The notes beneath the pieces were generated by a model. That model had not been told where the DNA came from, made no database searches, and saw nothing but the letters and a program-made list of their open reading frames with translations. A program made the translations under genes and the position numbers. Shown here one piece after another: positions 40,497-53,137 of a stretch of DNA of 64,000 bases. Origin of the DNA: a virus (lineage: Duplodnaviria > Heunggongvirae > Uroviricota > Caudoviricetes); the IMG/VR virus record IMGVR_UViG_3300037512_000782, positions 124,732 to 188,731 of that record, one strand, 5' to 3'. Numbering within the stretch: position 1 is the stretch's first letter; each line of letters begins with the position of its first letter.

Positions 40497-40499
40497 TAT

Positions 40500-40575: not shown

Positions 40576-40579
40576 CTAT

Positions 40580-40651: not shown

Positions 40652-40667
40652 CTAACAAATTATTTAT

Positions 40668-40751: not shown

Positions 40752-40759
40752 CTACTTAT

Positions 40760-40831
40760 TCTATCCTAGCTCAATGGTAGAGCGTTCGGCTGTTAACCGA
40801 ATGGTTCCTGGTTCGAGTCCAGGGGATAGAG
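40760..40831 (+). tRNA. tRNA-Asn(GUU)
   Basis: TTCGG-CT-GTT-AA-CCGAA; G73. Confidence 0.95.
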
Positions 40832-40841
40832 CTAATCATTT

Positions 40842-40914
40842 CAGCGTGTAGCTCAGCTGGTAGAGCGCACCGTTCGGGGCGGTGAGGTCGGTGGATCGTT
40901 CCCACTTACGCTGA
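40842..40914 (+). tRNA. tRNA-Pro(CGG)
   Basis: CACCG-TT-CGG-GG-CGGTG; atypical T-loop. Confidence 0.85.
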
Positions 40915-40919
40915 CTATT

Positions 40920-40992
40920 GCCTATGTAGCTCAGTTGGTAGAGCAACGGTTTAGTAATCCGTAGGTCGGCAGTTCGACCCTGTCCGTAGGCG
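40920..40992 (+). tRNA. tRNA-Thr(AGU)
   Basis: ACGGT-TT-AGT-AA-TCCGT; G1-C72, C2-G71. Confidence 0.8.
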
Positions 40993-40999
40993 CTACTAT

Positions 41000-41072
41000 T
41001 CCGACATAGCTCAGTTGGTAGAGCAGATCATTCGTAATGATCAGGTCGCTCGTTCGAGTCGAGCTGTCGGAG
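41000..41072 (+). tRNA. tRNA-Thr(CGU)
   Basis: GATCA-TT-CGT-AA-TGATC. Confidence 0.9.
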
Positions 41073-41076
41073 CTAT

Positions 41077-41159
41077 GGAAGTGTATCCTAACTGGTAAGG
41101 AACTACCTTGGAAAGGTAGCGTGGGAAACTGCTTGAAGGTTCGAGCCCTTCCACTTCCG
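41077..41159 (+). tRNA. tRNA-Ser(GGA)
   Basis: CTACC-TT-GGA-AA-GGTAG; long variable arm; G73. Confidence 0.9.
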
Positions 41160-41163
41160 CTAT

Positions 41164-41253
41164 GGAAGCGTAGACCTAACTGGTAAGGCCGCTGATTCGA
41201 AATCAGTCGTGTGGAGGATACTTCGCGTGTGGGTTCGAGTCCTACCGCTTCCG
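41164..41253 (+). tRNA. tRNA-Ser(CGA)
   Basis: GCTGA-TT-CGA-AA-TCAGT; long variable arm. Confidence 0.9.
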
Positions 41254-41270
41254 CTAATAAAGTTTGTATG

Positions 41271-41354
41271 GAGAGTTGGCAGAGTCTGGCTTATTGCATC
41301 ACGGTGCTAACGTGACGGTCTTAGGATCCACTGGTTCGAATCCAGTACTCTCTT
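41271..41354 (+). tRNA. tRNA-Ser(GCU)
   Basis: TCACG-GT-GCT-AA-CGTGA; G32. Confidence 0.85.
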
Positions 41355-41362
41355 CTAATCAT

Positions 41363-41436
41363 GGTGCCCGTAGCTCAATTGGTAGAGCCCTGGTATGTGG
41401 AACCAGCTGTTGCAAGTTCAAGCCTTGTCGGACGCC
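41363..41436 (+). tRNA. tRNA-His(GUG)
   Basis: CTGGT-AT-GTG-GA-ACCAG; G-1/C73. Confidence 0.9.
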
Positions 41437-41443
41437 CTATTAT

Positions 41444-41516
41444 TGCCGATTAGCCAAGTTGGTAAGGCAGATGCCTCTGAAGCATCGTATCGTTCGTTCG
41501 AGTCGAGCATCGGCAA
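41444..41516 (+). tRNA. tRNA-Gln(CUG)
   Basis: GATGC-CT-CTG-AA-GCATC. Confidence 0.9.
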
Positions 41517-41530
41517 CTAAAATTTTATAT

Positions 41531-41604
41531 GCGCCCATGGTGTAATTGGCTAACACGACACCTTGCCATGGTGTAGACTGCCGAATCGTGCTCGGCTGGG
41601 CGCT
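41531..41604 (+). tRNA. tRNA-Gly(GCC)
   Basis: ACACC-TT-GCC-AT-GGTGT; U73; atypical T-loop. Confidence 0.85.
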
Positions 41605-41608
41605 CTAT

Positions 41609-41691
41609 CTCGATGTGGGGGAATTGGTAGACCCGCCAGCTTGAGGGGCTGGTTCGTAACAGAGTGCATGGTTCAAGTCCAGCCATCGAGA
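41609..41691 (+). tRNA. tRNA-Leu(GAG)
   Basis: CCAGC-TT-GAG-GG-GCTGG; long variable arm. Confidence 0.9.
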
Positions 41692-41704
41692 CTAATCATC
41701 AATC

Positions 41705-41790
41705 CGGCGATTGCTGGAACTGGAAAGACAATTCGGACTTAAAATCCGAAGCACGTAACGTGCGTATGGGTTCGAGTCCCATATCGCCGA
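41705..41790 (+). tRNA. tRNA-Leu(UAA)
   Basis: TCGGA-CT-TAA-AA-TCCGA; long variable arm. Confidence 0.9.
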
Positions 41791-41863
41791 TAGGAGATAA
41801 CTAACATGAAGAAACTTAAACGATTATAAAGGTCGCAACTGCCTATCAGTTGCAATTCCCTAT

Positions 41864-41936
41864 GCGGGATTGGCGCAGTTGGTAGCGCAATGGACTTTTA
41901 ATCTATGGGTCGTCAGTTCGAACCTGACATCCCGCA
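41864..41936 (+). tRNA. tRNA-Lys(UUU)
   Basis: ATGGA-CT-TTT-AA-TCTAT. Confidence 0.9.
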
Positions 41937-41940
41937 CTAT

Positions 41941-42011
41941 GCACCTATATTGTAGTGGTAACAAGGTGGTCTTCCAAACCGCAATCGCCAGTTCGAATCT
42001 GACTAGGTGCT
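41941..42011 (+). tRNA. tRNA-Gly(UCC)
   Basis: GTGGT-CT-TCC-AA-ACCGC; U73. Confidence 0.9.
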
Positions 42012-42020
42012 CTAACTTAT

Positions 42021-42104
42021 CGGCATGTGGAGTAATTGGTAGCCTCGCCAGAATCAGAATCTGGTGGTCGAAAGATCGTGAGGGTTCGATTCCCTCTTTG
42101 CCGA
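42021..42104 (+). tRNA. tRNA-Leu(CAG)
   Basis: CCAGA-AT-CAG-AA-TCTGG; long variable arm. Confidence 0.85.
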
Positions 42105-42108
42105 CTAT

Positions 42109-42182
42109 CGCCCGGTGACGGAACTGGCATACGTTTCAGATTCAAAACCTGACTTTTGCGGGTTCGACTCCCGCCTGGGCGA
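42109..42182 (+). tRNA. tRNA-Leu(CAA) with short variable loop
   Basis: TCAGA-TT-CAA-AA-CCTGA; Leu-type D-arm; only 5 nt in the variable region. Confidence 0.75.
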
Positions 42183-42208
42183 CTATCTTTTCTAACAAAG
42201 GAACTAAC

Positions 42209-42547
42209 ATGATAACCGTTTCACAGATCAACGAACTTCGCCAGCAGACACAAGTGAGCATGCTTCTCTGCAAGCAAGCTCTTGAGGCTACTGACGGTGA
42301 CATGAACCGAGCCAAGGAATGGCTCCGCAGCAAGGGTAGCGAGGTCGCCGGAGACGGCGGATCGTTCGGATACTCTCTGTTCGAGGACGCTACCGAAAAA
42401 CTACAAGGCGTTACCGAAGGTGGCAAGGGTTTCCAATGGACTGATGGCGTAGTATCTATCGACATCCGTGGTTTCGACGGATCGTCTCCGAGAACTCTGT
42501 GGGGAAGCGACAGACGCATGCTGGTCTGCAGACCAGTCAAGGCGTAA
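42209..42547 (+). CDS. EF-Ts N-terminal (UBA-like) domain protein
   Basis: ITVSQINELRQQTQVSMLLCKQALEATDGDMNRAKEWLRSKG matches the EF-Ts N-terminal consensus; the rest is unrelated; AAGGA SD. Confidence 0.8.
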   Translation: MITVSQINELRQQTQVSMLLCKQALEATDGDMNRAKEWLRSKGSEVAGDGGSFGYSLFEDATEKLQGVTEGGKGFQWTDGVVSIDIRGFDGSSPRTLWGSDRRMLVCRPVKA

Positions 42548-42552
42548 CTTCT

Positions 42553-42625
42553 GCCCACGAAGCTCAACTGGATGAGCTGCGGATTTCTAATCCGCTGGCT
42601 GCGAGTTCGACTCTCGTCGTGGGTA
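42553..42625 (+). tRNA. tRNA-Arg(UCU)
   Basis: GCGGA-TT-TCT-AA-TCCGC. Confidence 0.9.
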
Positions 42626-42629
42626 CTAC

Positions 42630-42657
42630 TTGCAATCAAAACACTATTTGCTATATT
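42630..42657 (+). promoter_or_regulatory. Sigma70-like promoter inside the array
   Basis: TTGCAA-16 nt-TATATT. Confidence 0.6.
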
Positions 42658-42668
42658 TCGTACTGTAT

Positions 42669-42739
42669 TGAGCTATGGTGTAACGGTAGCACACGGGATT
42701 TTGATTCCCATAGTCTAGGTTCAAATCCTGGTAGCTCAA
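42669..42739 (+). tRNA. tRNA-Gln(UUG)
   Basis: CGGGA-TT-TTG-AT-TCCCA. Confidence 0.9.
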
Positions 42740-42743
42740 CTAT

Positions 42744-42823
42744 CCGGTTGTGGTGGAATTGGTAGACACGTCAGACTTAGGATCTGGTGCTTATGCGTGT
42801 GGGTTCGAGTCCCTCTAGCCGGA
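42744..42823 (+). tRNA. tRNA-Leu(UAG)
   Basis: TCAGA-CT-TAG-GA-TCTGG. Confidence 0.9.
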
Positions 42824-42839
42824 CTATTAAGAGGTTTCT

Positions 42840-43277
42840 ATGAGACGTTTGTTCATTATCCGCAAGGACTTGAAGTTATCTGCTGGCAAGCTTGCCGCGA
42901 TGGTTGCGCACTGCGCCGAAGGCTACTGGACGCGCCTTATCGCTAGGAATGCCGACTTCGACGGAGACGAGCATTACACAGTCCGATTCCGTTTGGATAA
43001 AGCGGACATGGAAGAATACATCAAGGGCATCTTCAAGAAGACTATCTGCGAGGCGAAGAACCTCAACCATCTTATGAAGGTCAAGGAAGTTGCCGACGGC
43101 CTTGGTCTTGTACAAGGCGAAGATTACGACTTCATCGACGACGCATGCTTGACGGAGCTGACTCCGGAAGCTGTCGACGAGAAGGGCAATGGTTATTGCC
43201 GAGTCGGCGTGTGGTTCAAGCCGCTATCTGACGAGATCAGCCACACGCTGTCCAAGAAGTATCAACTTTATCATTAA
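42840..43277 (+). CDS. pth2: Peptidyl-tRNA hydrolase, Pth2 family
   Basis: FIIRKDLKLSAGKLAAMVAHCA, KKTICEAKN, FIDDACLTE, GVWFKPL..SKKYQLY. Confidence 0.85.
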   Translation: MRRLFIIRKDLKLSAGKLAAMVAHCAEGYWTRLIARNADFDGDEHYTVRFRLDKADMEEYIKGIFKKTICEAKNLNHLMKVKEVADGLGLVQGEDYDFIDDACLTELTPEAVDEKGNGYCRVGVWFKPLSDEISHTLSKKYQLYH

Positions 43278-43282
43278 ACTAT

Positions 43283-43356
43283 GCTGACGTGCCGAAGTGG
43301 GAACGGGTGAGTCCGCAAAACTTTACATTGAGTGTGTTCGATTCACACCGTCAGCT
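43283..43356 (+). tRNA. tRNA-Cys(GCA)
   Basis: GAGT-CC-GCA-AA-ACTT; U73; C33. Confidence 0.8.
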
Positions 43357-43366
43357 CTAACTACTT

Positions 43367-44080
43367 ATGAAATTTGGATTGATCGGAAAGAACATTGGAT
43401 ACAGCAAGTCCAAGGAACTGTTTGACCAATGGAACCTTGACTACCGAGTTTACGACGTTGACAGTGTCGAACAAGGTCTTGAGCTGGTTATTGACGACAA
43501 GCTCGACGGATTCAATGTGACAAAGCCGTTCAAGAAGGACATCATCAAGTATCTTGACGGATTGATGCCCAATGCAGAACGTATTCAGTCAGTGAACTGC
43601 GTGAAGGTGTTTGCCGATACGTTGATCGGCGAGAACTTCGATTGCGATGCATTTCGTAACTCCTTGTGTCATTACATCAGCAATCACGACGCTTGGGAAT
43701 TCGACTTCCCTCACCGAATGGCGATTCTTGGAAATGGCGGCGTGACGCCGTCGATATTGGCTGCGTTACACGAAGTTGTGGACGGCGTTTCATCCAGTCA
43801 CGAGATTACGGTATTCGCTAGGACTCCGAAGGACGGTGAAACACCTATTGCCGAGTTCGATGCGAAACGGTTCGACTTGATAGTCAATACGGTTCCGTTC
43901 GAGGCTGGCATCGACATCGACTTCAACAACAAGGGCAAGTTCATCTATTATGACTTGAACTATGCCGATCGCCGATTGGTCGAGAAGGCTGAACTTAACA
44001 AGCATTGTTCTTGGTCGCTCGACGGCATGGATATGCTGGAACGGCAAGCTGAAATGGCCAAGAACTGGTGGCTGGCATAA
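43367..44080 (+). CDS. aroE: Shikimate dehydrogenase
   Basis: FGLIGKNIGYSKS, GFNVTKPFK (catalytic Lys), SVNC, GENFD, ILGNGG, IVNTVP, YDLNY, DGMDMLERQA. Confidence 0.85.
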   Translation: MKFGLIGKNIGYSKSKELFDQWNLDYRVYDVDSVEQGLELVIDDKLDGFNVTKPFKKDIIKYLDGLMPNAERIQSVNCVKVFADTLIGENFDCDAFRNSLCHYISNHDAWEFDFPHRMAILGNGGVTPSILAALHEVVDGVSSSHEITVFARTPKDGETPIAEFDAKRFDLIVNTVPFEAGIDIDFNNKGKFIYYDLNYADRRLVEKAELNKHCSWSLDGMDMLERQAEMAKNWWLA

Positions 44081-44109
44081 AAAAAATTACAAAAATTAGC
44101 CGATATGGG

Positions 44110-44138
44110 TTGCCAATGCTGGAGTTTATTGCTATATT
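44110..44138 (+). promoter_or_regulatory. Sigma70-like promoter
   Basis: TTGCCA-17 nt-TATATT; upstream of the second tRNA-Asn and the ncRNA/Y RNA/Ro60 block. Confidence 0.7.
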
Positions 44139-44196
44139 TTCTGGCACGATGATCCGAGAGATTATCGAGAAGGTTGACATATCGGATGATTCTTAT

Positions 44197-44269
44197 TGTT
44201 CCATAGCTCAGTTGGTAGAGCCCGCGACTGTTAATCGTGTTGTCCCTGGTTCGAGTCCAGGTGGAACAG
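44197..44269 (+). tRNA. tRNA-Asn(GUU), second copy
   Basis: CGCGA-CT-GTT-AA-TCGTG; G73. Confidence 0.95.
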
Positions 44270-44630
44270 CTAAAACCCAGACAGTAATTGTTCGTAGGGA
44301 CAACGTTATTGTTACGGCACGATGAAATTCATGCTGGCCGGATCCAACTAAACGGATTCGCTGACCGAAGGTAAAGTTCCGACGGATAGCGGGTGATTTA
44401 CGGTCTGGGTAATTTTAAATTCACACTTGGAAGTAAAAGGTAAAACTTCAACCGCTGCCGACTTCGGGTCGGGTTCCGGAGAGTTGCCAACATCCTAAAT
44501 TGGTAGTGTGGAGAATGGGGTTCGTTCCGTGCGACAGATTATCGAACTCCTACGAGCACAGAACGTCGCGTAAGGTTCTGTGCGAGGCGCTTTACCGTAG
44601 TACGTGACAAAACGGACAAGTTTGATTCGA

Positions 44631-44706
44631 CGCGGGTGGGTGGAACGGAATACCATTCGAGGCTCATAACCTCTGAGATACCGGAGTTCGACTCCCGGAC
44701 CCGCTA
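44631..44706 (+). tRNA. tRNA-Met(CAU), initiator-like
   Basis: C1-U72 mismatch; loop CT-CAT-AA; anticodon stem GAGG/CCTC rather than GGG/CCC. Confidence 0.75.
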
Positions 44707-44775
44707 CTATTTTTGAGTTTAACGACAACATGGACAAGTGCAAACGCTTGGTGCGACATGTTGTCGGTTGTGTTT

Positions 44776-44850
44776 CACGGACGGTGATAGAGCTGAGTTA
44801 CTTCGTATTTTTGGTATACGCCCAACACTTAGTTCGCCCATGCCTCCGTG
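44776..44850 (+). ncRNA. Minimal Y-RNA-like RNA (Y0)
   Basis: Same GGTGATAG-stem-TTACTTCG...stem-GCCCA module as the four RNAs before the Ro60 gene; closing stem CACGGA/TCCGTG. Confidence 0.65.
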
Positions 44851-44860
44851 TAAGTTTGAA

Positions 44861-45014
44861 ATGTCGCGATGGTGCAATCGAGTGGTCTAAAGCTCGACGC
44901 GGCCTACTAAACGCCGAAGTTACTACATACGGCGATGGCATGTGGGAAAGCACACTCTGCATCTTCCCTGGTAGTAAGCAGAGAGATTGCGGTTCGAGTC
45001 CCAGTCACGACATC
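44861..45014 (+). ncRNA. tRNA-derived RNA with expanded D- and anticodon loops
   Basis: Acceptor ATGTCGCGA/TCACGACAT, D-stem GTGC/GCAC, stem CTCTG/CAGAG, TTCGAGT T-loop. Confidence 0.55.
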
Positions 45015-45018
45015 AAAA

Positions 45019-45130
45019 TGCGATGAACGGTGGTTACCTTATGTAAGGTAGGGGCATCTACCTTTGGGACATGTTGCCCATCTGTGGCAACTCCCAGAAT
45101 CCCACGACTTTAGTCGTGGGAGTATGTCAA
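45019..45130 (+). mobile_element. IS200/IS605-family end (omegaRNA-like remnant), non-autonomous
   Basis: GAATCCCACGACTTTAGTCGTGGGAGTATGTCAA at 45097-45130; no tnpA/tnpB in the window. Confidence 0.7.
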
Positions 45131-45845
45131 GTAGCAACGCCTAGTAGTTGGAACTCCGTAGCGCATAGCGGACGTTAAAATAAAGAGTGCGCAGCCTTTT
45201 GTTAGGAACTAAAAATCGTGCTGAGGCGGCTGTACGACAGAGCCGGGTGAATCATGATCATCTATGCACGATACCGAGGGGATAGAGAGATTAGGGATCC
45301 GTCAACCGAGTACGTATAGGCCGGATACGCTCGAAACAGGTCAAAGCAATTTACTGTCGTACGTTTTTGTAACTCACTGAACCAGGTTTTCGAGGGAACG
45401 TTTAACCGCTGGGCACCTAGACCAGCTAGGTGAGTGCCACCGCCGATGGTGTATACGTATCACCGAAGGTTTGTCTGGTTGCTAAAGAAACGTCCCGCCC
45501 ATTATGGAGTCGCTGCCCAAGCAGCGTGGGGCGCGTAAGCGCCGTCTGGTGTGAATGACGTTAAAGACACACTATTCCCCTAGAGGGCAATCGACAATGG
45601 GTCTGGTCGTAAAAGAGCTGCCTCGTACGCCTCCTGCAGTTTCGTTAAGGGAGGCACACCTTTAAAAGCTGGCGTTTCTAGGGCGCATCGTAGCTCCCCG
45701 CATTGGTAGCGGCGACATCGGAGTAAAATCCGTGAGCTGACGTGCAAACTGTGCGTCCCATCAACGAGCGGCCTAATCGTAGGTGTAGGATAAGTTCTCG
45801 GATCTTAGGGAGATCTAAAACCGAGGCCAAGTTTTTATGAGTTTT

Positions 45846-45956
45846 GGATACCAGTGACAGTATACGGTTACTTCGGATAATGATGTGGTTCGACTCCATA
45901 GGGCGAAAGCCCATGCCGCGTGGGCGGCAGCACCCGTATGCGACAATTCTGTATCC
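45846..45956 (+). ncRNA. Y RNA (YrlA-like) Y1
   Basis: GGATAC/GTATCC closing stem; CAGTGACAG-TATACGG-TTACTTCG; T-loop TTCGACT; two further hairpins. Confidence 0.7.
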
Positions 45957-45966
45957 TAAAAAGTTT

Positions 45967-46113
45967 GACGGACAGTGATAGAATAGAGTTTCATCGTACG
46001 CATAAACGAAGAACGTTGGTTCGAATCCAGCCGTCGGTATAAGTTCAAAATTACTCCGACGTCGTCTAGTGGTCTAGGATCTTAAAAAGCTTTGTTCGGC
46101 TAATTCTTCCGTC
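45967..46113 (+). ncRNA. Y RNA (YrlA-like) Y2
   Basis: GACGGA/TCCGTC closing stem; permuted order T-arm, acceptor stem, D-arm. Confidence 0.8.
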
Positions 46114-46140
46114 TTTTTTGATTTTTGAAATGTACTTAAA

Positions 46141-46286
46141 TAATATCTAGCGGTGACAGATTAGAGTTTCATCGACTGTTAATCGAGAGGTTGTTGGTTC
46201 GAGTCCAATCGTGCTAGCTAGTCTGGCATGTAGCTCAATCGGTAGAGCGCTAAAAAAAGCTTTAGTCGCCTATTCCCTAGATATTA
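46141..46286 (+). ncRNA. Y RNA (YrlA-like) Y3
   Basis: TAATATCTAG/CTAGATATTA closing stem; Asn-like anticodon hairpin, T-arm, acceptor, D-arm in permuted order. Confidence 0.8.
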
Positions 46287-46310
46287 TTCAAGTATATTTA
46301 TGTGAAGTTT

Positions 46311-46460
46311 GAACCAGCAGTGATAGGATAGGGATACTTCGCAATAGGTGCCGTGGGTCGTCGGTTCAAATCCGGCTTCGCCGCCTAGCTTTTTATGCGG
46401 CGGATAGCTCAGTCTGGTAGAGCAACGATCAAATCTCTCTGTTCGCCCATTCTCTGGTTC
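46311..46460 (+). ncRNA. Y RNA (YrlA-like) Y4
   Basis: GAACCAG/CTGGTTC closing stem; GTCGG-TTCAAAT-CCGGC T-arm, then acceptor stem, then GCTC..GAGC D-arm. Confidence 0.8.
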
Positions 46461-46659
46461 TTTTTATTTTCTGGTTGGCCATATAGACTAGTGAACAATA
46501 TGGTGAAACCAGCACACCTAACACTGACGACAACGTGACCTTCAGGGATTTGATCACCCAATGATGTGGTCGCCAACCAGTTAATTTAGCGGGGTACGAA
46601 AGTTACCGTGAAAACGTTAGGTAAAGTGTTTAACTACAACTAAAAACAAGGAAGACAAC

Positions 46660-48081
46660 ATGTCAAAGTTAAATCCGTCCACGAAGGGCAATTCAATGGA
46701 CACTACTGTCCGTTTGGCTGGCGGGACCGGTGCTTATGCTGCGAAGTCGTCCAACATCGACACGCTTCGCCGTCTCGTACTCGCCAACTTACTCTGGGAA
46801 GACATTGCTTACGCCGATGGCGAATCAGTGTCCGAAGAAATCTCCAGCCTCATACCGAAGTGTGATGCTGTGGAAGTCGCAAAGCTTGCGGTAGAATGCC
46901 GTGAGAAGCAGAAGTTGCGTCATACGCCGTTGTTCATCGCAGCGGAAATGACGAAGTACGCAACGCATAAGGTTTACGTGAAGGATATCCTTCCGAGGAT
47001 CATCACTCGCGCCGACATGCTCTGTGACTTCCTTGCGATTTATTGGAAGGACAAGAAGCACCCGCTGGCAAATTGCGTGAAGCGTGGTCTTGCTGATGCG
47101 TTCCACAACTTCGACGAATACCAGTTCGCCAAGTATGACCGTGACGCAGTGATCAAGCTCCGCGACGTGCTCCGCATGGTGCATCCGACTCCGCGTAACG
47201 AAGACGAAGCCGCATTGTTCAAGCGCATCAAGGAACGTACCTTGAAGACGCCGGATACTTGGGAAGTCGCGATTTCCGCTGTGTCCGCAGACAAGAAGGC
47301 TGACGAATGGACTCGACTCATCCAAGAAAAGCGTCTCGGTGGTCTTGCGTTCTTGCGCAACATGGCTAACTTTGTGAACAACAAGGTGAAGCGCAGTGTT
47401 GTTGAGGAAGGTTTGAAGAACCTCAAGGGAAGCATGCTCTTGCCGCTTGACTATATCAAGGCTGCGAAGATGGCCTCTGGCTATACTCGCGAAATCGAAG
47501 ACGCGATGATCTCGTCCTACAAGCACTTGCCGAAGCTGCCGGGTAAGACCTTGTTCATCTTGGACAGGTCTGGTTCCATGGGCCGTGCGATCTCCAGCAA
47601 GAGCAATTTCACTCGTCTTGACGTTGCTTGCGCGATGGCTATGTTGGCCTCGAACGTGTGTGAAGACTTCAGCTTGGTCGTAACCGCTGGTGACGACTGG
47701 AAGAAGGTCGCTGCATCGGTCGCTGTCGACTGTCCGCCGCGTGGTTTCTCCATGACCCAAGTGGTCGACCGTTGCAATGTCGGCGGTGGTGGTATCTTCA
47801 CTCGCCAGGTGCTTGAATGGTCTCGCAACCACTTCAAGACCGACGAGTTCGACCGTATCATCGTGTTCTCGGACTCTCAGGACTGCGATCTGCCGTCTAG
47901 GCAGACTCCGAAGCCGTTCGGTAAGTACAACTACATCTGCGACGTAAGCGCAGAGAAGCACGGCATCAACTACCGTGGAGTTTGGACTGCCGAAATCTCC
48001 GGTTGGTCGGAACACTTCTTGACCTATATCGCAGCTTACGAAGGACTTGAAAACAAGTTCGAGAGCGAGTCGATGAACTAA
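46660..48081 (+). CDS. rsr: Ro60-related TROVE-domain RNA-binding protein (Rsr)
   Basis: LRRLVLANLLWED, LRHTP, FDEYQFAKY, KLRDVLRMVHP, TWEVAIS, AFLRNM and vWA MIDAS LDRSGSM...FSDSQ. Confidence 0.9.
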   Translation: MSKLNPSTKGNSMDTTVRLAGGTGAYAAKSSNIDTLRRLVLANLLWEDIAYADGESVSEEISSLIPKCDAVEVAKLAVECREKQKLRHTPLFIAAEMTKYATHKVYVKDILPRIITRADMLCDFLAIYWKDKKHPLANCVKRGLADAFHNFDEYQFAKYDRDAVIKLRDVLRMVHPTPRNEDEAALFKRIKERTLKTPDTWEVAISAVSADKKADEWTRLIQEKRLGGLAFLRNMANFVNNKVKRSVVEEGLKNLKGSMLLPLDYIKAAKMASGYTREIEDAMISSYKHLPKLPGKTLFILDRSGSMGRAISSKSNFTRLDVACAMAMLASNVCEDFSLVVTAGDDWKKVAASVAVDCPPRGFSMTQVVDRCNVGGGGIFTRQVLEWSRNHFKTDEFDRIIVFSDSQDCDLPSRQTPKPFGKYNYICDVSAEKHGINYRGVWTAEISGWSEHFLTYIAAYEGLENKFESESMN

Positions 48082-48220
48082 GGTTGTGTAGGGGGCCGTT
48101 TCGTTGTGCGTACGGCCTTAAACGAGGGAACAACGGCGGGGCCTAGTGATGCTAGCTAGTGGGATACCCAACGCCCAGATGAACACCCTACTTCTTTTAA
48201 CCATCAAACAAGGAACCATC

Positions 48221-48481
48221 ATGTCCAATAAATCAACAGATACTCTCAAGCAGACCGATAAGATGACTCAGCGGTCGATGATCTTGAAGGCTCTAAAGGC
48301 TGGCCGTACGCTTACATGGCTCGACGCCGTGAACGACTTCGGCTGTTCTAAGCTCTCCACTCGCATCGGCGAAATGGTGAAGGCTGGCATGGTCAAAGTG
48401 AAGCGTGGTTGGATGACCACCAACACTGGCAAGACCGTCCGCACTTACAAGATCGATCGTTCTCGCAAGAAGGACTCCTAG
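48221..48481 (+). CDS. Winged helix-turn-helix protein
   Basis: TQRSMILKALKAGRTLTWLDAVNDFGCSKLSTRIGEM is typical of phage wHTH proteins; AAGGA SD. Confidence 0.7.
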   Translation: MSNKSTDTLKQTDKMTQRSMILKALKAGRTLTWLDAVNDFGCSKLSTRIGEMVKAGMVKVKRGWMTTNTGKTVRTYKIDRSRKKDS

Positions 48482-48490
48482 AGGTTGCCG

Positions 48491-48895
48491 ATGCCTAAAG
48501 TCATAGCAGTAGACTTCGACTCTACAATCGCGTTCGACGCATGGCCACGGATAACCGATAAAACCACGGTGAACTCGACGGTCGTCAACTGGATAAAAAA
48601 GCGCCAGAAGATGGGCGACAAGATTATCCTCTGGACATGCCGCGAGAACTACGGTGGCGTAAAGTTTCCGGATTACGAGTATAGGAATGACGCATTGCTG
48701 TTCTGCACACGTAATCAGATATTCTTCCATAATGTCAACGCGAGTGACGGAGAAGTCGGTTTCGAGGAAGGCAAGTATGGTCGCAAGATCATGGCTGACG
48801 CCTACATCGACGACCGTTCGGCTCCGTTTGGCCGAAGCCAGTTCTGGTGGAAGGTCTATCTGTGGCTTATGGACAGAAAGCTTGCAAAGATGTAG
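48491..48895 (+). CDS. HAD-superfamily phosphatase
   Basis: IAVDFDSTI (motif I), LWTCR (II), K..ADAYIDDR (III/IV). Confidence 0.8.
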   Translation: MPKVIAVDFDSTIAFDAWPRITDKTTVNSTVVNWIKKRQKMGDKIILWTCRENYGGVKFPDYEYRNDALLFCTRNQIFFHNVNASDGEVGFEEGKYGRKIMADAYIDDRSAPFGRSQFWWKVYLWLMDRKLAKM

Positions 48896-49054
48896 TGTTT
48901 GGGTATCCAGAAAACTACGCGCTTCTACCTCAGCGTAGCCAGTATGGTCGTCCGGGAAGAAAGCTCCTCAAGATACCGGATGTAAAGACAAAATCTCTTC
49001 TGGGATGTCTATAAATGCCGTTTTTGGTTTGGGCGGCGAACCAGTGAGGGTATT

Positions 49055-49128
49055 CGGAGTGTAGCTCAGCCTGGTAGAGCATTGGATTTGGGTTCCAAGG
49101 GTCGCGTGTTCGAATCACGCTACTCCGA
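49055..49128 (+). tRNA. tRNA-Pro(UGG)
   Basis: TTGGA-TT-TGG-GT-TCCAA; C1-G72, A73. Confidence 0.95.
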
Positions 49129-49320
49129 CTAATAACTGCAGCGGTTCATCAAAGCATTGTGAGTGAACTCCACCGTTTCCATTCGTGAGAATGACCTGTC
49201 GTGTAACATAAAATGATGCTTGCGGAGTGAACACTAGAGAGCATGTGTACTGGAGCTGCTGCTACTGCAAATTCCGGAATGAGCAGAAAGGAAACTCCGC
49301 ACCAATTTTGTGAGGTGTCT

Positions 49321-49554
49321 ATGGTCGAAATCGAAGAATTGTCGCATGAAGAACTTCAGCGCATAGTTTCAGAAGCTGGCGCTGAAGCCGTCAAGAAGGC
49401 ATTCGCGGCTGGCGTACCAGTTTGCGGTTCCGAAGGCGACAAGATTTTCAAGTACTATCCAAATGGAACCAAAAAGGTCATCGGAAAGATCGAACATCCG
49501 ACGGTGCCTATAGACATCCATCAGCTTGTGGGTTCGCAGCTGCCAGTGAAATAA
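49321..49554 (+). CDS. Small hypothetical protein
   Basis: GAGG SD before ATG 49321. Confidence 0.6.
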   Translation: MVEIEELSHEELQRIVSEAGAEAVKKAFAAGVPVCGSEGDKIFKYYPNGTKKVIGKIEHPTVPIDIHQLVGSQLPVK

Positions 49555-49790
49555 CTGGGTATATACAGTACGGAACCGACACCGTATCCATGACTGCGGT
49601 TAACGTCATGGTCTGCACGAAAGCCACGCAATCGGTGGCGACTAATGCACCGTTACCGTGCTGACGGGTTATGGCACGGCATGTCGTTACGGAGCAGCGG
49701 CGTAGTGTCCAGTGGACGCTCCGGCAGTGATTGGAAAGCGCTGTGGCGAGTGAAGAATTTGCCGAACTGGAAGTGATTACCCAGAGTTAT
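49551..49790 (+). ncRNA. Unassigned structured RNA, about 240 nt
   Basis: Closing stem ATAACTGGGTA/TACCCAGAGTTAT; at least five internal hairpins. Confidence 0.5.
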
Positions 49791-50050
49791 TCCCGCCGAG
49801 AGGGCTTGCGCAAATCTCGGCGAACAAGTTTGAAAAGCGTCGATCGTAAGCGGAAGAAGATCCGTTAGACTCGGAGCAGCGTATAGGTTTCCGCAACGTG
49901 ATAGTTCTGCGACAGAATATCCGCCTGTATCGACGTAGATGACTAACCGATTTCGTTCGGGAATGTTGGATGCATGGTTGATGATGTTCGGTAAGCCATG
50001 CGACCGTAAAGCAATAACCGACTGCTATACGTCGGACGCCGATTCCTTTT

Positions 50051-50125
50051 GGACGTTGAGCTCGGCGGTACGCGAGCGGGTGACTCATAACCATCTGGCC
50101 CTGGGTTCGAATCCCAGAACGTCCA
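50051..50125 (+). tRNA. tRNA-Ile2(CAU) (lysidine type; Met not excluded)
   Basis: GGTGA-CT-CAT-AA-CCATC; GACTCATAA context as in Ile2. Confidence 0.7.
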
Positions 50126-50140
50126 GTATCAAAAGTTTAA

Positions 50141-50326
50141 ACCGAGCTGAATGCATCCCATGATGTTTGATGTGGGAGACTGCTAGGCGAGTGGGTGTGC
50201 TGGTGGCCACTGGACATACCCTTTTCCGAGAGCAAGATATAACAAGTCGACCAATGAAACTTGCCATTCGTCGTACAAGCATACTCATTAGTGTTGAGTG
50301 TGTGACGGAGCAGCGATCAGCTCGGT
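50141..50326 (+). ncRNA. Unassigned structured RNA, about 186 nt
   Basis: Perfect 10-bp closing stem ACCGAGCTGA/TCAGCTCGGT; internal hairpins. Confidence 0.45.
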
Positions 50327-50349
50327 CGTTTTTTATTATGAGGTAGAAC

Positions 50350-51234
50350 ATGTCATCGAGAAAGCAAACCCAAGAAGAGATCAAGGCTCTTGAGTCCAAG
50401 ATAAAGAAATTGAAGTCGCAGATGAAAGAGTACGACGACGCCGACCTCGACGAATTTGCTAAATCGTTGAATGGCGCATTGATGTTCTGCGAAGACGAAT
50501 ACTTCATCAATGTCCGTGTGACAAGAGACGGTGACATGGTCAAATTCAAATCCGACTGGCTTGTCATTAACCGTCCTTTCAGCTTGCCACAAGTGGCCAA
50601 GCGCAATCCGTATGGCTGCGCCAACGGAACCTACACTGATGCGAAAGAAGTCTTGGATATGGTTAAAAAGGGCGAGATGCGAGTCATCAGCGACCCGAAA
50701 GAAATCAAGGAAGTTATCGACAAGAGCATCTATGGCTATGACCTTGCAGACAATGCTATCCGCATGGCCATGTTGTGCCAAAAGCCGTCGATTGGCGGAA
50801 AGCTTACCCAAGTGACTCCGCAGAACGCGGCAGAAAAATTGCTTGGCCTCACCGGGACGCTGTACCATAAAAAAGATAAGTGGAACGATCTGTATCTGTT
50901 CTTCCGTGTACTCGACGTCGGCGACGGCAGTGTATTTATCAAGCCGTATTATCTTGAATTCAACCGCAGGGACAAGGATTCCAGCGACTTGCCGGAAGCG
51001 AGTGTCGGTGCGGTGCTCAATGTTTCTGTCAGTCCGATTGACAAGCGGATCAATGGCTTGGACAAGAAGTTGAAATCCGCCGTCAAGTGGGTCAATACAT
51101 TGATCGATGATTTTGTCCCAGAGAATTGGGATGAGCTTACCGAACGAATGACCGACATACGAAAGCACGAAATCAACGATAGGCTCTATGCGACGAACGG
51201 ACTTATCAAGCTGATTACCCAAAAGAGGAAATAA
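50350..51234 (+). CDS. Hypothetical protein
   Basis: GAGG SD; 294 aa; phage-like codon usage. Confidence 0.7.
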   Translation: MSSRKQTQEEIKALESKIKKLKSQMKEYDDADLDEFAKSLNGALMFCEDEYFINVRVTRDGDMVKFKSDWLVINRPFSLPQVAKRNPYGCANGTYTDAKEVLDMVKKGEMRVISDPKEIKEVIDKSIYGYDLADNAIRMAMLCQKPSIGGKLTQVTPQNAAEKLLGLTGTLYHKKDKWNDLYLFFRVLDVGDGSVFIKPYYLEFNRRDKDSSDLPEASVGAVLNVSVSPIDKRINGLDKKLKSAVKWVNTLIDDFVPENWDELTERMTDIRKHEINDRLYATNGLIKLITQKRK

Positions 51235-51236
51235 CC

Positions 51237-51827
51237 ATGTTTACTGTACGACCGACCGTATTCGAGACGAACTCCAGTTCGGAACATTGCTTGACCGTCG
51301 AAGACGGCATGCGCGATATCGAGGAATTTCCGATACCGGATGATACTGGCAAGGTTCACATTCCACTGATCGGAAACGCCGACGACTTGACTGAAACGAA
51401 GGACTTCGTGTCCTTGGTTCAGTACATTGTCCTTGCGTCGCTCAAGGGTAATGGATACGAGAACTTGTTCCGTATGAGTGAGGAAGACCTTAACAAGCTT
51501 CATTACTTGATTACGACGGCGTACAAGATGGCTGGTATTCTGGGTGTTGACGAGATTTCGTTCGAGCCGCCTAACAAGAACTATCTCGGCGTCGAACTGG
51601 GAAAAAATACCCTCGCTCTGTGGGGCGGCTGCTATACGGATCTGTCTACTATGGAATGGGGCATAGATGATGTGATTAGCCGACTTGCTTGGGCTGTGAG
51701 GGACAGTAACGTCGCTCTCAGACTGGCCACGCCGTACTTGGCAAATTATATGGGCGAAAGCAAGAAGATCAACTACGCTGCGGCAGCGCTCGCCATGCGC
51801 ACACACGGCCACTTTCAAGACTGTTAG
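51237..51827 (+). CDS. FETNSSS-motif hypothetical protein 1
   Basis: TVRPTVFETNSSSEH. Confidence 0.7.
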   Translation: MFTVRPTVFETNSSSEHCLTVEDGMRDIEEFPIPDDTGKVHIPLIGNADDLTETKDFVSLVQYIVLASLKGNGYENLFRMSEEDLNKLHYLITTAYKMAGILGVDEISFEPPNKNYLGVELGKNTLALWGGCYTDLSTMEWGIDDVISRLAWAVRDSNVALRLATPYLANYMGESKKINYAAAALAMRTHGHFQDC

Positions 51828-51902
51828 CGTCCGTAGCTCAATGGACTAGAGCGTCGCTCTCCGAAGGCGAAGGTTTTGCCAGTTCGACCCTGGCCGGACG
51901 CA
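51827..51902 (+). tRNA. tRNA-Arg(CCG)
   Basis: TCGCT-CT-CCG-AA-GGCGA. Confidence 0.9.
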
Positions 51903-51905
51903 TTT

Positions 51906-51978
51906 GTCCACGTCGTCAAGCTGGAATGGCCTCGCTCTCCTAAAGCGATGTTCGCTGGTTCGACTCCAGCCGTGGATA
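51906..51978 (+). tRNA. tRNA-Arg(CCU)
   Basis: TCGCT-CT-CCT-AA-AGCGA. Confidence 0.85.
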
Positions 51979-52007
51979 CTACAAACAAACCAAAAGGACA
52001 CAAACCA

Positions 52008-52619
52008 ATGATTACCGTAAGAAACCAAGTTTTTGAAACAAATTCAAGTAGCTGCCATTCGGTCACGCTGGGTACTGAACTCAGACCGATCGAAGAATTC
52101 CCGCTGCCTGACAAGGATGGCGTCATCCAGATCGAACTGCCGATTGCCAAGGAATGGTATGACGGATTCAAGACATTCAATGACTTCTTGATCCTCGCGC
52201 TCATGTATATCAACGACGGCGAAAAGCTGACTGGTTGGAACTGGTCGCCGAGCGGCGACGACCAAGTCGACTTGCTTCGCTGGATCAACATCGTCTACTC
52301 TATGCGCGGTCTTCCGCACGTCAACAGTATCAAGTTGAGCTGGACTGGCTTTGTCGAATTCAAGGAAGACGGTTCTGGAAGTAGCTTCGGCGAAAACGAC
52401 CAGACATGCTATGCGATCAGCTCGTTGCAGAGTGGTTATGGTCTTGAAGAATTCTTGCTTTCGATGGGGCAAGAAATCGGCCCAGACACCAATCTGCCTG
52501 GTCTCGAAAAGATCATGGAACCCATCAAGGAAGAAGATTACAAGGCGAACGTGGCGATGTACAACGCGGCTGTCTCGGTCGTGTACAATTCCACTAGCAA
52601 CATCTGGAGTGATAGCTAA
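52008..52619 (+). CDS. FETNSSS-motif hypothetical protein 2
   Basis: MITVRNQVFETNSSSCH; AAGGA SD. Confidence 0.7.
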   Translation: MITVRNQVFETNSSSCHSVTLGTELRPIEEFPLPDKDGVIQIELPIAKEWYDGFKTFNDFLILALMYINDGEKLTGWNWSPSGDDQVDLLRWINIVYSMRGLPHVNSIKLSWTGFVEFKEDGSGSSFGENDQTCYAISSLQSGYGLEEFLLSMGQEIGPDTNLPGLEKIMEPIKEEDYKANVAMYNAAVSVVYNSTSNIWSDS

Positions 52620-53089
52620 TGCGTACTATACGAATGAACGTATTCGAAACCAATTCGAGCTCGTGCCACGTCATGACCGTCATGAACGAGGAACAGCTCG
52701 CACAGTTCGACAAGAAGTGGAACGAACGGCGTAATGTCTATCCGTGCCGCCGTCTCCGTCGAGCCGATTCCGACAGCAACGAAGCTGGTCTGTACGAAAT
52801 CATCGACGACGACACCTTCTTTGCCGAAATGTATCCGAAGTTCGAACAAGTTGCAAAGACCATCGACAAGGATACTGCACGGAAGATTATGGACATGCTG
52901 TTCATGGAAAAGCCTCATGAAGACATCTTGAAGGAATTTCCGACGGTCAACCCGGAAGAACTTCAGATGTACGACTGGACTTACGTTTGCGGCAGCAGTG
53001 AAACCGTGAACTTCTGCGAATCGTATGTCGAAGGCCAAATTTCTGCTGGCAACGGAAAGTTTGCCGTACTCATTTCGATGGCTTGCTAA
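52619..53089 (+). CDS. FETNSSS-motif hypothetical protein 3
   Basis: MRTIRMNVFETNSSSCH. Confidence 0.7.
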   Translation: MRTIRMNVFETNSSSCHVMTVMNEEQLAQFDKKWNERRNVYPCRRLRRADSDSNEAGLYEIIDDDTFFAEMYPKFEQVAKTIDKDTARKIMDMLFMEKPHEDILKEFPTVNPEELQMYDWTYVCGSSETVNFCESYVEGQISAGNGKFAVLISMAC

Positions 53090-53111
53090 ATAAACTCATT
53101 TTTGCTATATT
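53083..53111 (+). promoter_or_regulatory. Sigma70-like promoter
   Basis: TTGCTA-17 nt-TATATT. Confidence 0.65.
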
Positions 53112-53137
53112 TAGCAAGCACTCAAATCGGAGTTACT

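What the first reader, a model, noticed from the sequence alone, without database searches (positions are those of the whole stretch)
45846..48081. Phage-encoded Ro60 with a tandem array of four diversified Y RNAs (five with Y0)
Seen: four consecutive 110-150 nt elements directly upstream of a full TROVE-vWA gene. Each has its own closing stem and the shared module RGTGAYAG-stem-(T/A)(T/A)(A/T)C(T/A)TCG...stem-CG(A/G/C)(C/T)..ATT. The domain inside differs in each: Y1 is degenerate (T-loop plus two GC hairpins), Y2 has a Glu/Gln/Asp-type D-arm, Y3 an Asn-type domain and Y4 a Met/Pro-type one. Known: bacterial Rsr binds Y RNAs; YrlA RNAs mimic tRNA through a permuted T-acceptor-D domain and tether effectors such as PNPase; a few phages carry Ro/YrlA. 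Inference: a modular RNP in which one protein presents interchangeable tRNA mimics, for example as decoys or baits for different tRNA-targeting nucleases or as adaptors for repair and decay enzymes. This multiplicity and size gradient inside a phage tRNA island looks undescribed to me.
Basis: partly seen in the sequence, partly recalled or inferred. Interest (0 to 1): 0.9.

Follow-up and report, generated by a model that had tools for sequence, protein, structure and literature searches.

The report
Phage Ro60 gene with five Y RNAs
A 348-kb cattle-gut phage encodes a Ro60-type RNA-binding ring protein preceded by five small RNAs that share one conserved "handle", three of them carrying back-to-front tRNA look-alikes; this is a real but divergent form of the known Ro60/Y-RNA particle, and I found such arrays beside Ro60 genes in many other phages.

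Summary
Four stem-closed RNAs lie directly upstream of a 473-aa Ro60/Rsr gene (46660-48081): Y1 45846-45956, Y2 45967-46113, Y3 46145-46282 and Y4 46312-46459. A fifth, minimal one (Y0, 44776-44850) lies 1 kb further up.

All five share a handle: closing stem, bulged C, 2 bp, RGUGAYAG internal loop, 8-bp stem, then UUACUU-CG. In the 348-kb genome only these five score fully on a descriptor (0.3 expected). Compensatory changes in relatives support every helix.

Y2-Y4 carry permuted tRNA-like domains (T arm, closed acceptor stem, D arm). They are divergent YrlA-type Y RNAs: Rfam YrlA scores 36-38 bits, below its 69-bit threshold.

The array is not unique:
- Close relatives have 4-6 copies.
- Most of 80 mostly ~100-kb, crAss001-like phage Ro60 loci have 2-4.
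- Caulobacter phage CcrColossus has 7-8 and Xanthomonas phage Tenjo about 5, including the same Asn-like type as Y3.

Phage Ro60 with Y RNAs is already published (Chen 2014; Thermus phage phiLo 2025). This scan has also reported such arrays before on other DNA. The decoy or bait function remains untested. Verdict: a new variant of a known kind, of moderate interest.

The parts
44776..44850 (+). Y0: minimal 75-nt Y-like RNA, consisting of the handle plus a small hairpin and no tRNA-like domain
   Evidence: R1 scores 66 bits, E about 1e-12. The MFE fold equals the predicted architecture, z -3.5. Orthologues are in L005, L009, L016, L100 and L101. It overlaps ORF 44730-45026, which has no Pfam hit.
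45846..45956 (+). Y1: handle plus a T-arm-like hairpin (GGUUCGACUCC) and two GC hairpins
   Evidence: R1 scores 39.1 bits. The fold has z -2.95. Across 5 orthologues 94% of cells are paired against 30-56% when partners are slid, and the T stem and both hairpins covary.
45967..46113 (+). Y2: handle + hairpin + T arm + closed 6-bp acceptor-like stem + 3-bp D arm of Glu/Asp type
   Evidence: Full descriptor score. The consensus fold with 4 relatives has compensatory changes in 15 of 41 pairs. Its D half is nearest to tRNA-Glu(ctc)/Asp. R1 and Rfam do not detect it.
46145..46282 (+). Y3: handle + anticodon-arm-like hairpin (loop CUGUUAA, as in tRNA-Asn) + T arm + closed 7-bp acceptor stem + D arm
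   Evidence: Rfam YrlA scores 36.5 bits, E 7.7e-6, below GA 69. R1 scores 30.8 bits. In an 8-phage alignment that includes CcrColossus and Xanthomonas phage Tenjo, 27 of 38 pairs change compensatorily, while 3 of the 4 base pairs of the UCGA/UCGA hairpin stem never vary.
46312..46459 (+). Y4: handle + short hairpin + T arm + closed 7-8-bp acceptor stem (loop starts C-CUA) + D arm; the most YrlA-like copy
   Evidence: Rfam YrlA scores 37.7 bits, E 3.6e-6; orthologues reach 45.5 bits. R1 scores 39.7 bits. In the 8-orthologue fold 13 of 33 pairs change compensatorily.
46660..48081 (+). Ro60/Rsr orthologue (TROVE HEAT-repeat ring + vWA domain, DRSGS MIDAS motif), 473 aa
   Evidence: Pfam TROVE E 5.4e-11; VWA_2 19.6 bits, below its cut-off. 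AlphaFold2 pLDDT 78.6. Foldseek matches phiLo Ro60 9kop/9l5y, Xenopus Ro 1yvp, Deinococcus Rsr 2nvo and human Ro60 9nen, E 1e-17 to 3e-10, TM 0.6-0.7. It is 60% identical to crAss001 gp96.

Best explanation
The five elements are trans-acting Y RNAs of the phage's own Ro60 protein.

Each RNA closes on itself through its 5' and 3' ends. This forms a conserved handle: a stem of 6 or more bp, one bulged C, two more pairs (RG/CY), an asymmetric internal loop carrying UGAYA, and an 8-bp stem. The handle occupies the position of the Ro60-binding stem of YrlA and animal Y RNAs. It looks like a diverged form of their GNCGAA(N)G motif.

Inferred: Ro60 binds this handle on its outer face.

The inner domain differs between copies. 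Y0 has none, Y1 has a T arm with two hairpins, and Y2-Y4 have three different permuted tRNA look-alikes. Inferred: this domain decides what each particle touches. Candidates are host PNPase, as in the RYPER complexes of Deinococcus, Salmonella and phage phiLo, or tRNA-handling enzymes such as RNase P, the CCA-adding enzyme, modification enzymes or RtcB.

The set therefore gives one protein several specificities for RNA quality control, decay or repair during infection. The setting is a phage that brings its own 42 tRNAs, Pth2, RtcB ligase and CCA-adding enzyme.

Shown here: the RNA architecture, its conservation, its linkage to Ro60, and the protein's fold. Not shown here: binding, processing, partners and phenotype.
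For: RNA structure and conservation:
- Five full-score handles lie within 1.7 kb on the Ro60 strand, against 0.3 expected per genome.
- On 13 minimal elements the handle helices are 83.5% paired, against 44-54% when slid, and 14 of 16 pairs have compensatory changes.
- Helices of Y1-Y4 covary among orthologues.
- Rfam YrlA gives E 4e-6 and 8e-6 on Y4 and Y3.
- The tRNA tertiary-contact letters (U8, GG in the D loop, UUCGA in the T loop) are readable in Y2-Y4.

Linkage to Ro60:
- Model R1 gives 114 hits in 80 phage Ro60 loci, all on the Ro60 strand.
- The descriptor gives 169 hits on the + strand against 3 on the - strand, and 112 of 119 lie just downstream of the gene.
- The position is upstream in this phage clade, CcrColossus, Tenjo and Kikimora, and downstream in crAss-like phages. 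That argues for trans-acting RNAs rather than a leader.

Protein and published precedent:
- The protein is a full Ro60 fold.
- phiLo Ro60 binds two upstream Y-like RNAs and host PNPase (PMC12135203).
- M. smegmatis YrlA and YrlB are Rsr-bound and made from one precursor upstream of rsr (PMC4201824).

Genome context:
- The genome also encodes RtcB (150 bits) and a CCA-adding-type enzyme (114 bits).

Weak hint of expression:
- Contigs from four cattle-gut metatranscriptome runs (three studies) cover the array and the gene.
Against: - There is no direct evidence of transcription ends, Ro60 binding or processing. The RNA-library data are contigs, and DNA carry-over cannot be excluded.
- No element reaches the Rfam YrlA gathering score. 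The Rfam model aligns only the tRNA-like part, not the handle.
- The published GNCGAA(N)G motif is not present in any handle, so homology of the handle to the known Ro60 site rests on position and partial motif likeness.
- The phage has no PNPase of its own.
- RtcB lies about 150 kb away, not in an operon with Ro60.
- R1 misses Y2.
Confidence: 0.8

Rival explanations
1. One reading: the Ro60-bound tRNA mimics are decoys or baits. Each copies a different tRNA class and titrates or senses a specific host tRNA-targeting defence nuclease, protecting real tRNAs.
For: - The paralogue types are distinct and each is kept across relatives.
- The Y3 type keeps 3 of the 4 base pairs of its anticodon-arm-like hairpin stem invariant, and keeps the tRNA-Asn loop CUGUUAA in 6 of 8 phages from three unrelated groups. 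All its other stems covary. This indicates sequence-specific recognition of that loop.
- The locus sits in a 42-tRNA island, which the literature (PMC7824862) reads as a counter to tRNA cleavage.
Against: - Nothing here shows cleavage, protection or a matching host nuclease.
- Two Y3 orthologues have other triplets in the loop (GAU, UGU), so the 'anticodon' is not fixed.
- Y0 and Y1 have no anticodon-like part.
- The one experimental phage system (phiLo) points to PNPase rather than to nucleases that cut tRNA.
Confidence: 0.12
2. The tRNA-like copies (Y3, Y4) are permuted tRNA genes. RNase P and 3' processing open the acceptor hairpin, CCA is added, and the two-piece RNA works as, or is religated by RtcB into, a functional tRNA.
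For: - Y3 de-permutes into a full cloverleaf with a 7-bp acceptor stem, discriminator G and a GUU loop.
- Y4's acceptor loop begins C-CUA, the trailer that follows 32 of the phage's 42 tRNAs.
- M. smegmatis YrlA is cut by RNase P and receives CCA in vivo.
- The phage encodes RtcB and a CCA-adding-type enzyme.
Against: - The phage already has two tRNA-Asn(GUU) genes.
- The handle is conserved and covaries like a functional part, not like a spacer to be discarded.
- The CUA trailer is not kept in Y3 orthologues.
- Y0, Y1 and Y2 cannot give a tRNA.
- The tRNA model scores only 21 bits on Y3.
Confidence: 0.05
3. The elements are cis-acting leader structures or tRNA-array debris, such as pseudogenes or junction remnants, with no function of their own.
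For: - They lie in the 5' region of the Ro60 gene inside a tRNA array.
- Y3 and Y4 look like junctions of tandem tRNAs.
- Chen 2014 warns that dimeric tRNAs can mimic YrlA.
Against: - The same handle family lies downstream of Ro60 in crAss-like phages.
- Y0 sits 1.8 kb from the gene.
- Helices show compensatory changes, and paralogue types persist down to 37% Ro60 identity.
- The flanking halves of the supposed tRNAs are replaced by the handle.
Confidence: 0.03

Closest known systems
YrlA/YrlB Y RNAs with Rsr (Salmonella, M. smegmatis; Rfam RF02553; Chen et al. 2014 PMC4201824; Wang et al. 2018, 10.1101/312249)
   Same: - The RNAs are encoded within 4 kb of the Ro60 orthologue and on its strand, with more than one per locus.
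- The 5' and 3' ends form a stem / internal loop / stem module.
- The effector module is a permuted tRNA mimic in the order T arm, closed acceptor stem, D arm.
- Minimal copies (Y0) resemble YrlB.
- A 7-bp acceptor stem, as in M. smegmatis YrlA, which RNase P cuts.
   Different: - Scores are 36-38 bits against the 69-bit Rfam threshold.
- The handle carries RGUGAYAG instead of GNCGAA(N)G.
- An extra hairpin between handle and T arm is anticodon-arm-like in Y3, whereas in solved YrlA the anticodon-like stem runs straight into the Rsr-binding stem.
- There are five copies of at least four architectures.
Thermus phage phiLo Ro60 with Yrl1 and Yrl2 (PMC12135203; PDB 9KOP, 9L5Y)
   Same: - A phage-encoded Ro60 with Y-like RNA genes directly upstream.
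- It is the best sequence match among solved structures (phmmer E 1.2e-16) and the best fold match (Foldseek E 1e-17).
- Binding of the RNAs and of host PNPase was shown by experiment.
   Different: - phiLo has two RNAs, identified by a CGAA motif, not described there as tRNA mimics.
- This phage has five RNAs with a different loop motif and three tRNA-like domains.
- The proteins are only 21-23% identical over the Foldseek alignments.
Caulobacter phage CcrColossus Ro60 locus (listed among YrlA-bearing phages by Chen 2014, as cited in PMC12135203)
   Same: - The same handle family: R1 hits of 26-36 bits.
- An upstream tandem array.
- The same Asn-like type as Y3, 79% identical over 110 nt.
   Different: - Seven to eight elements by my reading, with handle motif GGUGGCGUAG.
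- The host is an alphaproteobacterium.
- Ro60 is only 37% identical.
- The record annotates none of them as Y RNAs and calls part of one a tRNA-Gln.
Salmonella rsr-yrlBA-rtcBA RNA repair operon (PMC7790460)
   Same: The same genome holds Ro60, Y RNAs and an RtcB ligase, in a tRNA-damage context.
   Different: Here RtcB is about 150 kb from Ro60 and not co-operonic. No RtcA or RtcR was sought. Regulation is unknown.
Vertebrate Y RNA sets (two to four distinct Y RNAs per species, one Ro60; as summarised in PMC4201824)
   Same: One Ro60 serves several Y RNAs that share a bulged-helix binding stem and differ in the loop module.
   Different: The animal loop modules are not tRNA mimics, and there is no detectable sequence relation.

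Membership tests
Ro60 / Rsr protein (TROVE + vWA) | TROVE domain above Pfam's curated cut-off | tested here: met
   PF05731 scores 42.8 bits against a cut-off of 23, E 5.4e-11. The genome scan agrees.
Ro60 / Rsr protein (TROVE + vWA) | Full-length HEAT-repeat ring followed by a vWA domain with a MIDAS motif | tested here: met
   The AlphaFold2 model has pLDDT 78.6. Foldseek matches Ro60 structures over 480-560 aligned columns at TM 0.6-0.7, E down to 1e-17. DRSGS at residues 302-306 is invariant in relatives. Pfam VWA_2 alone is below its cut-off (19.6 against 27).
Ro60 / Rsr protein (TROVE + vWA) | Binds Y RNA on the outer surface and RNA 3' ends in the central hole | not testable with these tools
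   This needs EMSA, RIP or a structure.
YrlA (Rfam RF02553) | Reaches the family's gathering score (69 bits) | tested here: not met
   Y3 scores 36.5 bits and Y4 37.7 bits; Y0-Y2 have no hit at E up to 10. The best orthologue scores 45.5 bits.
YrlA (Rfam RF02553) | Encoded within 4 kb of, and on the same strand as, a Ro60 orthologue (criterion of Chen 2014) | tested here: met
   All five elements lie 0.2-1.9 kb upstream on the + strand.
YrlA (Rfam RF02553) | Permuted tRNA-like module in the order T arm, closed acceptor-like stem, D arm, keeping the tRNA tertiary-contact letters | tested here: met
   Met for Y2, Y3 and Y4, with covariation. Absent in Y0 and partial in Y1, which has a T arm only.
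YrlA (Rfam RF02553) | GNCGAA(N0-1)G motif near the 5' end, in the Rsr-binding stem | tested here: not met
   The handles read RGUGAYAG. The only exact GNCGAANG lies in an internal GNRA hairpin of Y1. CcrColossus handles read GGCGUAG, one letter away.
YrlA (Rfam RF02553) | Anticodon-like stem continuous with the Ro60-binding stem, with no anticodon loop | tested here: inconclusive
   Y4 has a 3-bp closing stem as in the Rfam model. Y2 and Y3 have a separate hairpin after the 8-bp stem. It can be read either as a variable arm or, in Y3, as a complete anticodon arm.
Y RNA in general | The 5' and 3' ends pair into a long stem with a bulged helix, enclosing a large variable loop module | tested here: met
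   The handle has an invariantly placed single bulged nucleotide and covarying RG/CY pairs.
Y RNA in general | Stable, Ro60-bound small RNA in cells | not testable with these tools
   The only data are metatranscriptome contigs covering the locus.
Ordinary tRNA gene | Detected by ARAGORN or by the Rfam tRNA model above 29 bits | tested here: not met
   ARAGORN makes no call at 44708-49054. The tRNA model scores 21.3 and 21.6 bits on chimeric readings.

The most novel reading that the evidence does not exclude
Phage Ro60 genes travel with a conserved kit of distinct Y RNA types: minimal, T-arm-only, Glu/Asp-like, Met/Pro-like, and an Asn-anticodon-arm type. In the Asn type 3 of the 4 hairpin-stem pairs are invariant and the loop is kept in 6 of 8 copies, from cattle-gut jumbo phages to Caulobacter and Xanthomonas phages. 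In this reading each type is a specific tRNA surrogate. It either steers the Ro60 particle to one class of tRNA-recognising factor or shields one class of tRNA from it, for example enzymes or nucleases that read the GUN anticodon loop. The array would then be a programmable anti-defence or tRNA-repair platform.
Probability: 0.15. Interest if true: 0.85.

Novelty: new variant of a known kind. Interest (0 to 1): 0.55.

Why it matters
Ro60/Y-RNA particles are known from animals, about 5% of bacteria and a few phages, but their function is still poorly defined.

This locus and its relatives show three things:
- Phage Ro60 genes usually come with arrays of 2-8 Y RNAs.
- These RNAs share a handle that Rfam does not capture.
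- The same few tRNA-like types recur in phages of unrelated hosts.

That gives testable handles for what the tRNA-like modules are for. Two culturable carriers are crAss001 on Bacteroides intestinalis and CcrColossus on Caulobacter. It also links Ro60 to the tRNA, RtcB and CCA-enzyme repertoire that large phages are thought to use against attacks on translation.

On the practical side, these RNAs are unannotated or mis-called as tRNAs in public phage records, and they overlap spurious ORFs.

Tried and rejected
RNA family and model searches:
- Rfam at gathering thresholds finds only tRNAs in the window. At E up to 10 nothing beyond two weak YrlA and two chimeric tRNA hits appears in 44700-46700.
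- R1 with filters off found only Y0 and Y1 in 38000-57000. The long-insert copies were lost, probably a length limit of the unfiltered scan. Y2 was never found by R1.
- R1 found nothing beside the Ro60 genes of Ralstonia phage RsoM2USA, Rhizobium phage TM21B or Halovirus HGTV-1. Sensitivity is limited, so this is no proof of absence.

Other sequence scans:
- The sigma-70 promoter and terminator scan of 44600-48300 gave fewer sites than shuffles. Transcript ends therefore remain unknown.
- The 46460-46600 stretch between Y4 and the gene does not fold better than shuffles, z -0.5.
- No ATP-dependent RNA ligase (PF09414) and no PNPase/RNase PH domain was found in the genome.

Expression data:
- Laying RNA-library contigs shows cover only, with no ends, strand or level.
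- The 93-nt 'skip' at 45037/45131 in RNA contigs is not splicing. DNA contigs of close relatives lack the same 93 nt.

Literature:
- The supplement of Chen 2014, the 2018 and 2020 Wolin reviews and Burroughs & Aravind 2016 are not held. I therefore could not check how many copies per phage were already tabulated.

Host:
- Host assignment from MAG bins is contradictory: near-identical contigs are binned as Fibrobacter and as Prevotella. I rejected it as evidence of host.
Full report
WHAT IS THERE

The window is bases 124732-188731 of a 348-kb IMG/VR virus record that CheckV rates 91% complete. All 42 tRNA genes of the genome lie in one island, at 38391-55649 on the + strand.

Inside this island the ORF 46660-48081 encodes a 473-aa protein. 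Evidence that it is a genuine Ro60/Rsr orthologue:
- It hits Pfam TROVE at 42.8 bits against a cut-off of 23, and weakly VWA_2.
- Its AlphaFold2 model (pLDDT 78.6) matches Ro60 structures over the full length at TM 0.6-0.7. The matches are Thermus phage phiLo (9kop, 9l5y), Xenopus (1yvp), Deinococcus (2nvo) and human (9nen).
- A DRSGS MIDAS motif is invariant among relatives.

THE RNAS

Reading the sequence and a pairing descriptor give five elements on the + strand:
- Y0 44776-44850
- Y1 45846-45956
- Y2 45967-46113
- Y3 46145-46282
- Y4 46312-46459

All five share the same handle:
- a closing stem of 6 or more bp;
- one bulged C;
- two further pairs that covary (AG/CU in Y1, Y2 and Y4; GG/CC in Y0 and Y3);
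- an internal loop reading UGAYA on the 5' side and G-V-C-(N)-A-U-K on the 3' side;
- an 8-bp second stem;
- a single-stranded UUACUU-like joiner leading into the variable domain.

The descriptor uses only the first motif with one mismatch allowed, plus pairing. It gives five full-score hits in the whole genome on both strands, exactly these five. Thirty shuffled genomes gave a mean of 0.3.

I built covariance model R1 from 13 minimal elements only: window Y0 and 12 from other phages. On that alignment the handle is 83.5% paired against 44-54% when partners are slid, and 14 of 16 pairs have compensatory changes. R1 recovers Y1, Y3 and Y4 at their exact ends and nothing else in the 64-kb window. 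It misses Y2.

THE VARIABLE DOMAINS

- Y0 has only a small hairpin.
- Y1 has a T-arm-like hairpin and two GC hairpins, all kept with compensatory changes in four orthologues.
- Y2, Y3 and Y4 each have a hairpin, a T arm, a closed acceptor-like stem of 6-8 bp and a D arm, in that order. This is the permuted tRNA layout of YrlA. U8, the D-loop GG and the T-loop UUCGA are all present.

Consensus folds with orthologues show compensatory changes in 15 of 41 pairs for Y2, 22 of 44 for Y3 and 13 of 33 for Y4.

Rfam's YrlA model hits Y3 at 36.5 bits and Y4 at 37.7 bits, far below its 69-bit threshold. It aligns only the tRNA-like part, not the handle.

- Y2's D half resembles tRNA-Glu/Asp.
- Y3's 3' half resembles tRNA-Asn.
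- Y4's D half resembles tRNA-Met, then Thr and Pro.

RELATIVES

Proteins 76-98% identical to this Ro60 occur on cattle-gut and other gut contigs. Their upstream regions hold 4-6 elements of the same orthologous types. Some have extra types that this phage lacks: a second minimal copy, and a copy with a T arm plus one hairpin between Y3 and Y4. Several also have a tmRNA between the array and the gene. This genome has none.

I fetched 80 IMG/VR loci with Ro60 42-63% identical, mostly on contigs of about 100 kb. One of them is crAss001 itself (102,679 bp).
- R1 gives 114 hits, all on the Ro60 strand.
- The descriptor gives 169 hits on the + strand against 3 on the - strand.
- 112 of 119 hits lie just downstream of the gene.
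- Per locus, 36 loci have three hits, 14 have two and 6 have four.

crAss001 has three stem-closed copies. It also has two unannotated RNAs with the opposite topology: a normal tRNA-like body with open acceptor ends, in which the handle, closed by a loop, replaces the anticodon arm.

Beyond this clade:
- Caulobacter phage CcrColossus (Ro60 37% identical) has seven to eight tandem elements upstream of its gene, with handle motif GGUGGCGUAG.
- Xanthomonas phage Tenjo has about five.
- Brevundimonas phage Kikimora has three to four, and Microcystis phage Mvi-JY20 at least one.

THE Y3 TYPE

The Y3 type recurs in CcrColossus and Tenjo. In an eight-phage alignment 27 of 38 pairs change compensatorily. 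In the hairpin stem UCGA/UCGA, 3 of the 4 pairs never vary; the fourth is broken in two phages. Its loop is the tRNA-Asn loop CUGUUAA in six of eight; the other two read CUGAUAA and CUUGUAA. That hairpin is therefore under sequence constraint, not only shape constraint.

HOW IT MOST LIKELY WORKS

By position and architecture the handle corresponds to the Ro60-binding stem of Y RNAs. It resembles the published GNCGAA(N)G motif in five of eight letters, with a pyrimidine kept at a sixth; CcrColossus is one letter away. This correspondence is an inference, not a statistical match.

Published facts that bear on it:
- Rsr binds YrlA and YrlB, which are encoded next to it.
- M. smegmatis YrlA, with a 7-bp acceptor stem, is cut by RNase P and receives CCA.
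- phiLo Ro60 binds two upstream Y-like RNAs and, with them, host PNPase, whose activity it lowers.
- Jumbo-phage TROVE proteins have been placed among RNA-repair functions.

This genome also encodes RtcB and a CCA-adding-type enzyme, but no PNPase. In addition, 32 of its 42 tRNAs are followed by CUA, a trailer that also opens Y4's acceptor loop.

I therefore read the array as a set of Ro60 adaptors. One binding handle is combined with different effector modules, acting in RNA quality control, decay or repair during infection. The decoy hypothesis, the permuted-tRNA hypothesis and the cis-element or debris hypothesis are listed as rivals with their tests.

EXPRESSION

Contigs from four cattle-gut metatranscriptome runs in three studies cover the array and the gene. 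This is only a weak hint, because contigs show no ends and DNA may be present in those libraries.

NOVELTY

Already published:
- Ro60 with several Y RNAs.
- tRNA-mimicking YrlA.
- Phage Ro60/Y RNA pairs, including CcrColossus.
- The biochemistry of one phage system (phiLo).

Not found in the papers I could search:
- arrays of five or more;
- the variant handle, which Rfam misses;
- the recurrence of the same paralogue types across unrelated phages;
- the un-permuted forms in crAss001.

Several key sources could not be read.

This scan has reported the same kind of array several times on other DNA. The window is therefore one good example of a class, not a singleton.

Noticed in passing
window 45038-45130: A 93-bp segment with a strong hairpin is an insertion specific to this genome. 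DNA contigs of 94-98% relatives (L016, L100, L101) and RNA-library contigs join 45037 directly to 45131. It may be a miniature mobile element.
   Followed up: partly
window 44851-45845: About 1 kb has no credible ORF and no Rfam match at E up to 10. Parts are conserved in relatives: 45502-45844 is 93% identical in L005, 45666-45823 is 85% in L011, and 45372-45504 is 77% in L009. One or more unknown structured RNAs may lie between Y0 and Y1.
   Followed up: partly
L011:3615-3972, L014:3519-3879, L018:2537-2894, L019:3359-3722: More distant relatives carry a tmRNA (103-115 bits) between the Y RNA array and the Ro60 gene. ARAGORN finds no tmRNA anywhere in the window's 348-kb genome.
   Followed up: partly
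L001:4693-4836 and about L001:4950-5090 (crAss001, downstream of gp96): Two unannotated tRNA-like RNAs have open acceptor ends and a loop-closed handle in place of the anticodon arm. This is the circular permutation of the window's layout. The first scores 46.6 bits on the tRNA model with a roughly 70-nt insert.
   Followed up: partly
L116:1673-1740 (CcrColossus record): The annotated tRNA-Gln lies inside a 165-nt Y-like element (L116:1669-1833) and is probably a mis-call. In the window the tRNA model likewise gives a weak 21-bit reading of the 5' part of Y3 (46148-46217).
   Followed up: no
window 44730-45026: This 98-aa ORF has no family match and overlaps Y0. It is probably not a gene.
   Followed up: no
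G000:C1:16911-17945 (-) and G000:C1:216949-217332 (+), outside the window: The phage encodes an RtcB RNA ligase (150 bits) and a CCA-adding/poly(A)-polymerase-family enzyme (114 bits). None of the 42 tRNA genes shown ends in CCA, and 32 are followed by CTA.
   Followed up: partly
L100 and L101: Near-identical phage contigs (Ro60 98% identical) are binned into a Fibrobacter MAG and a Prevotella MAG. At least one bin is contaminated, so the host cannot be read from them.
   Followed up: no
window 46115-46145, 46283-46311 and matching spacers in L005, L011, L018: An AAGTATA(A/T)-like word recurs 10-25 nt before several elements. It may be a phage promoter or processing signal. The sigma-70 scan did not pick it up.
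   Followed up: no
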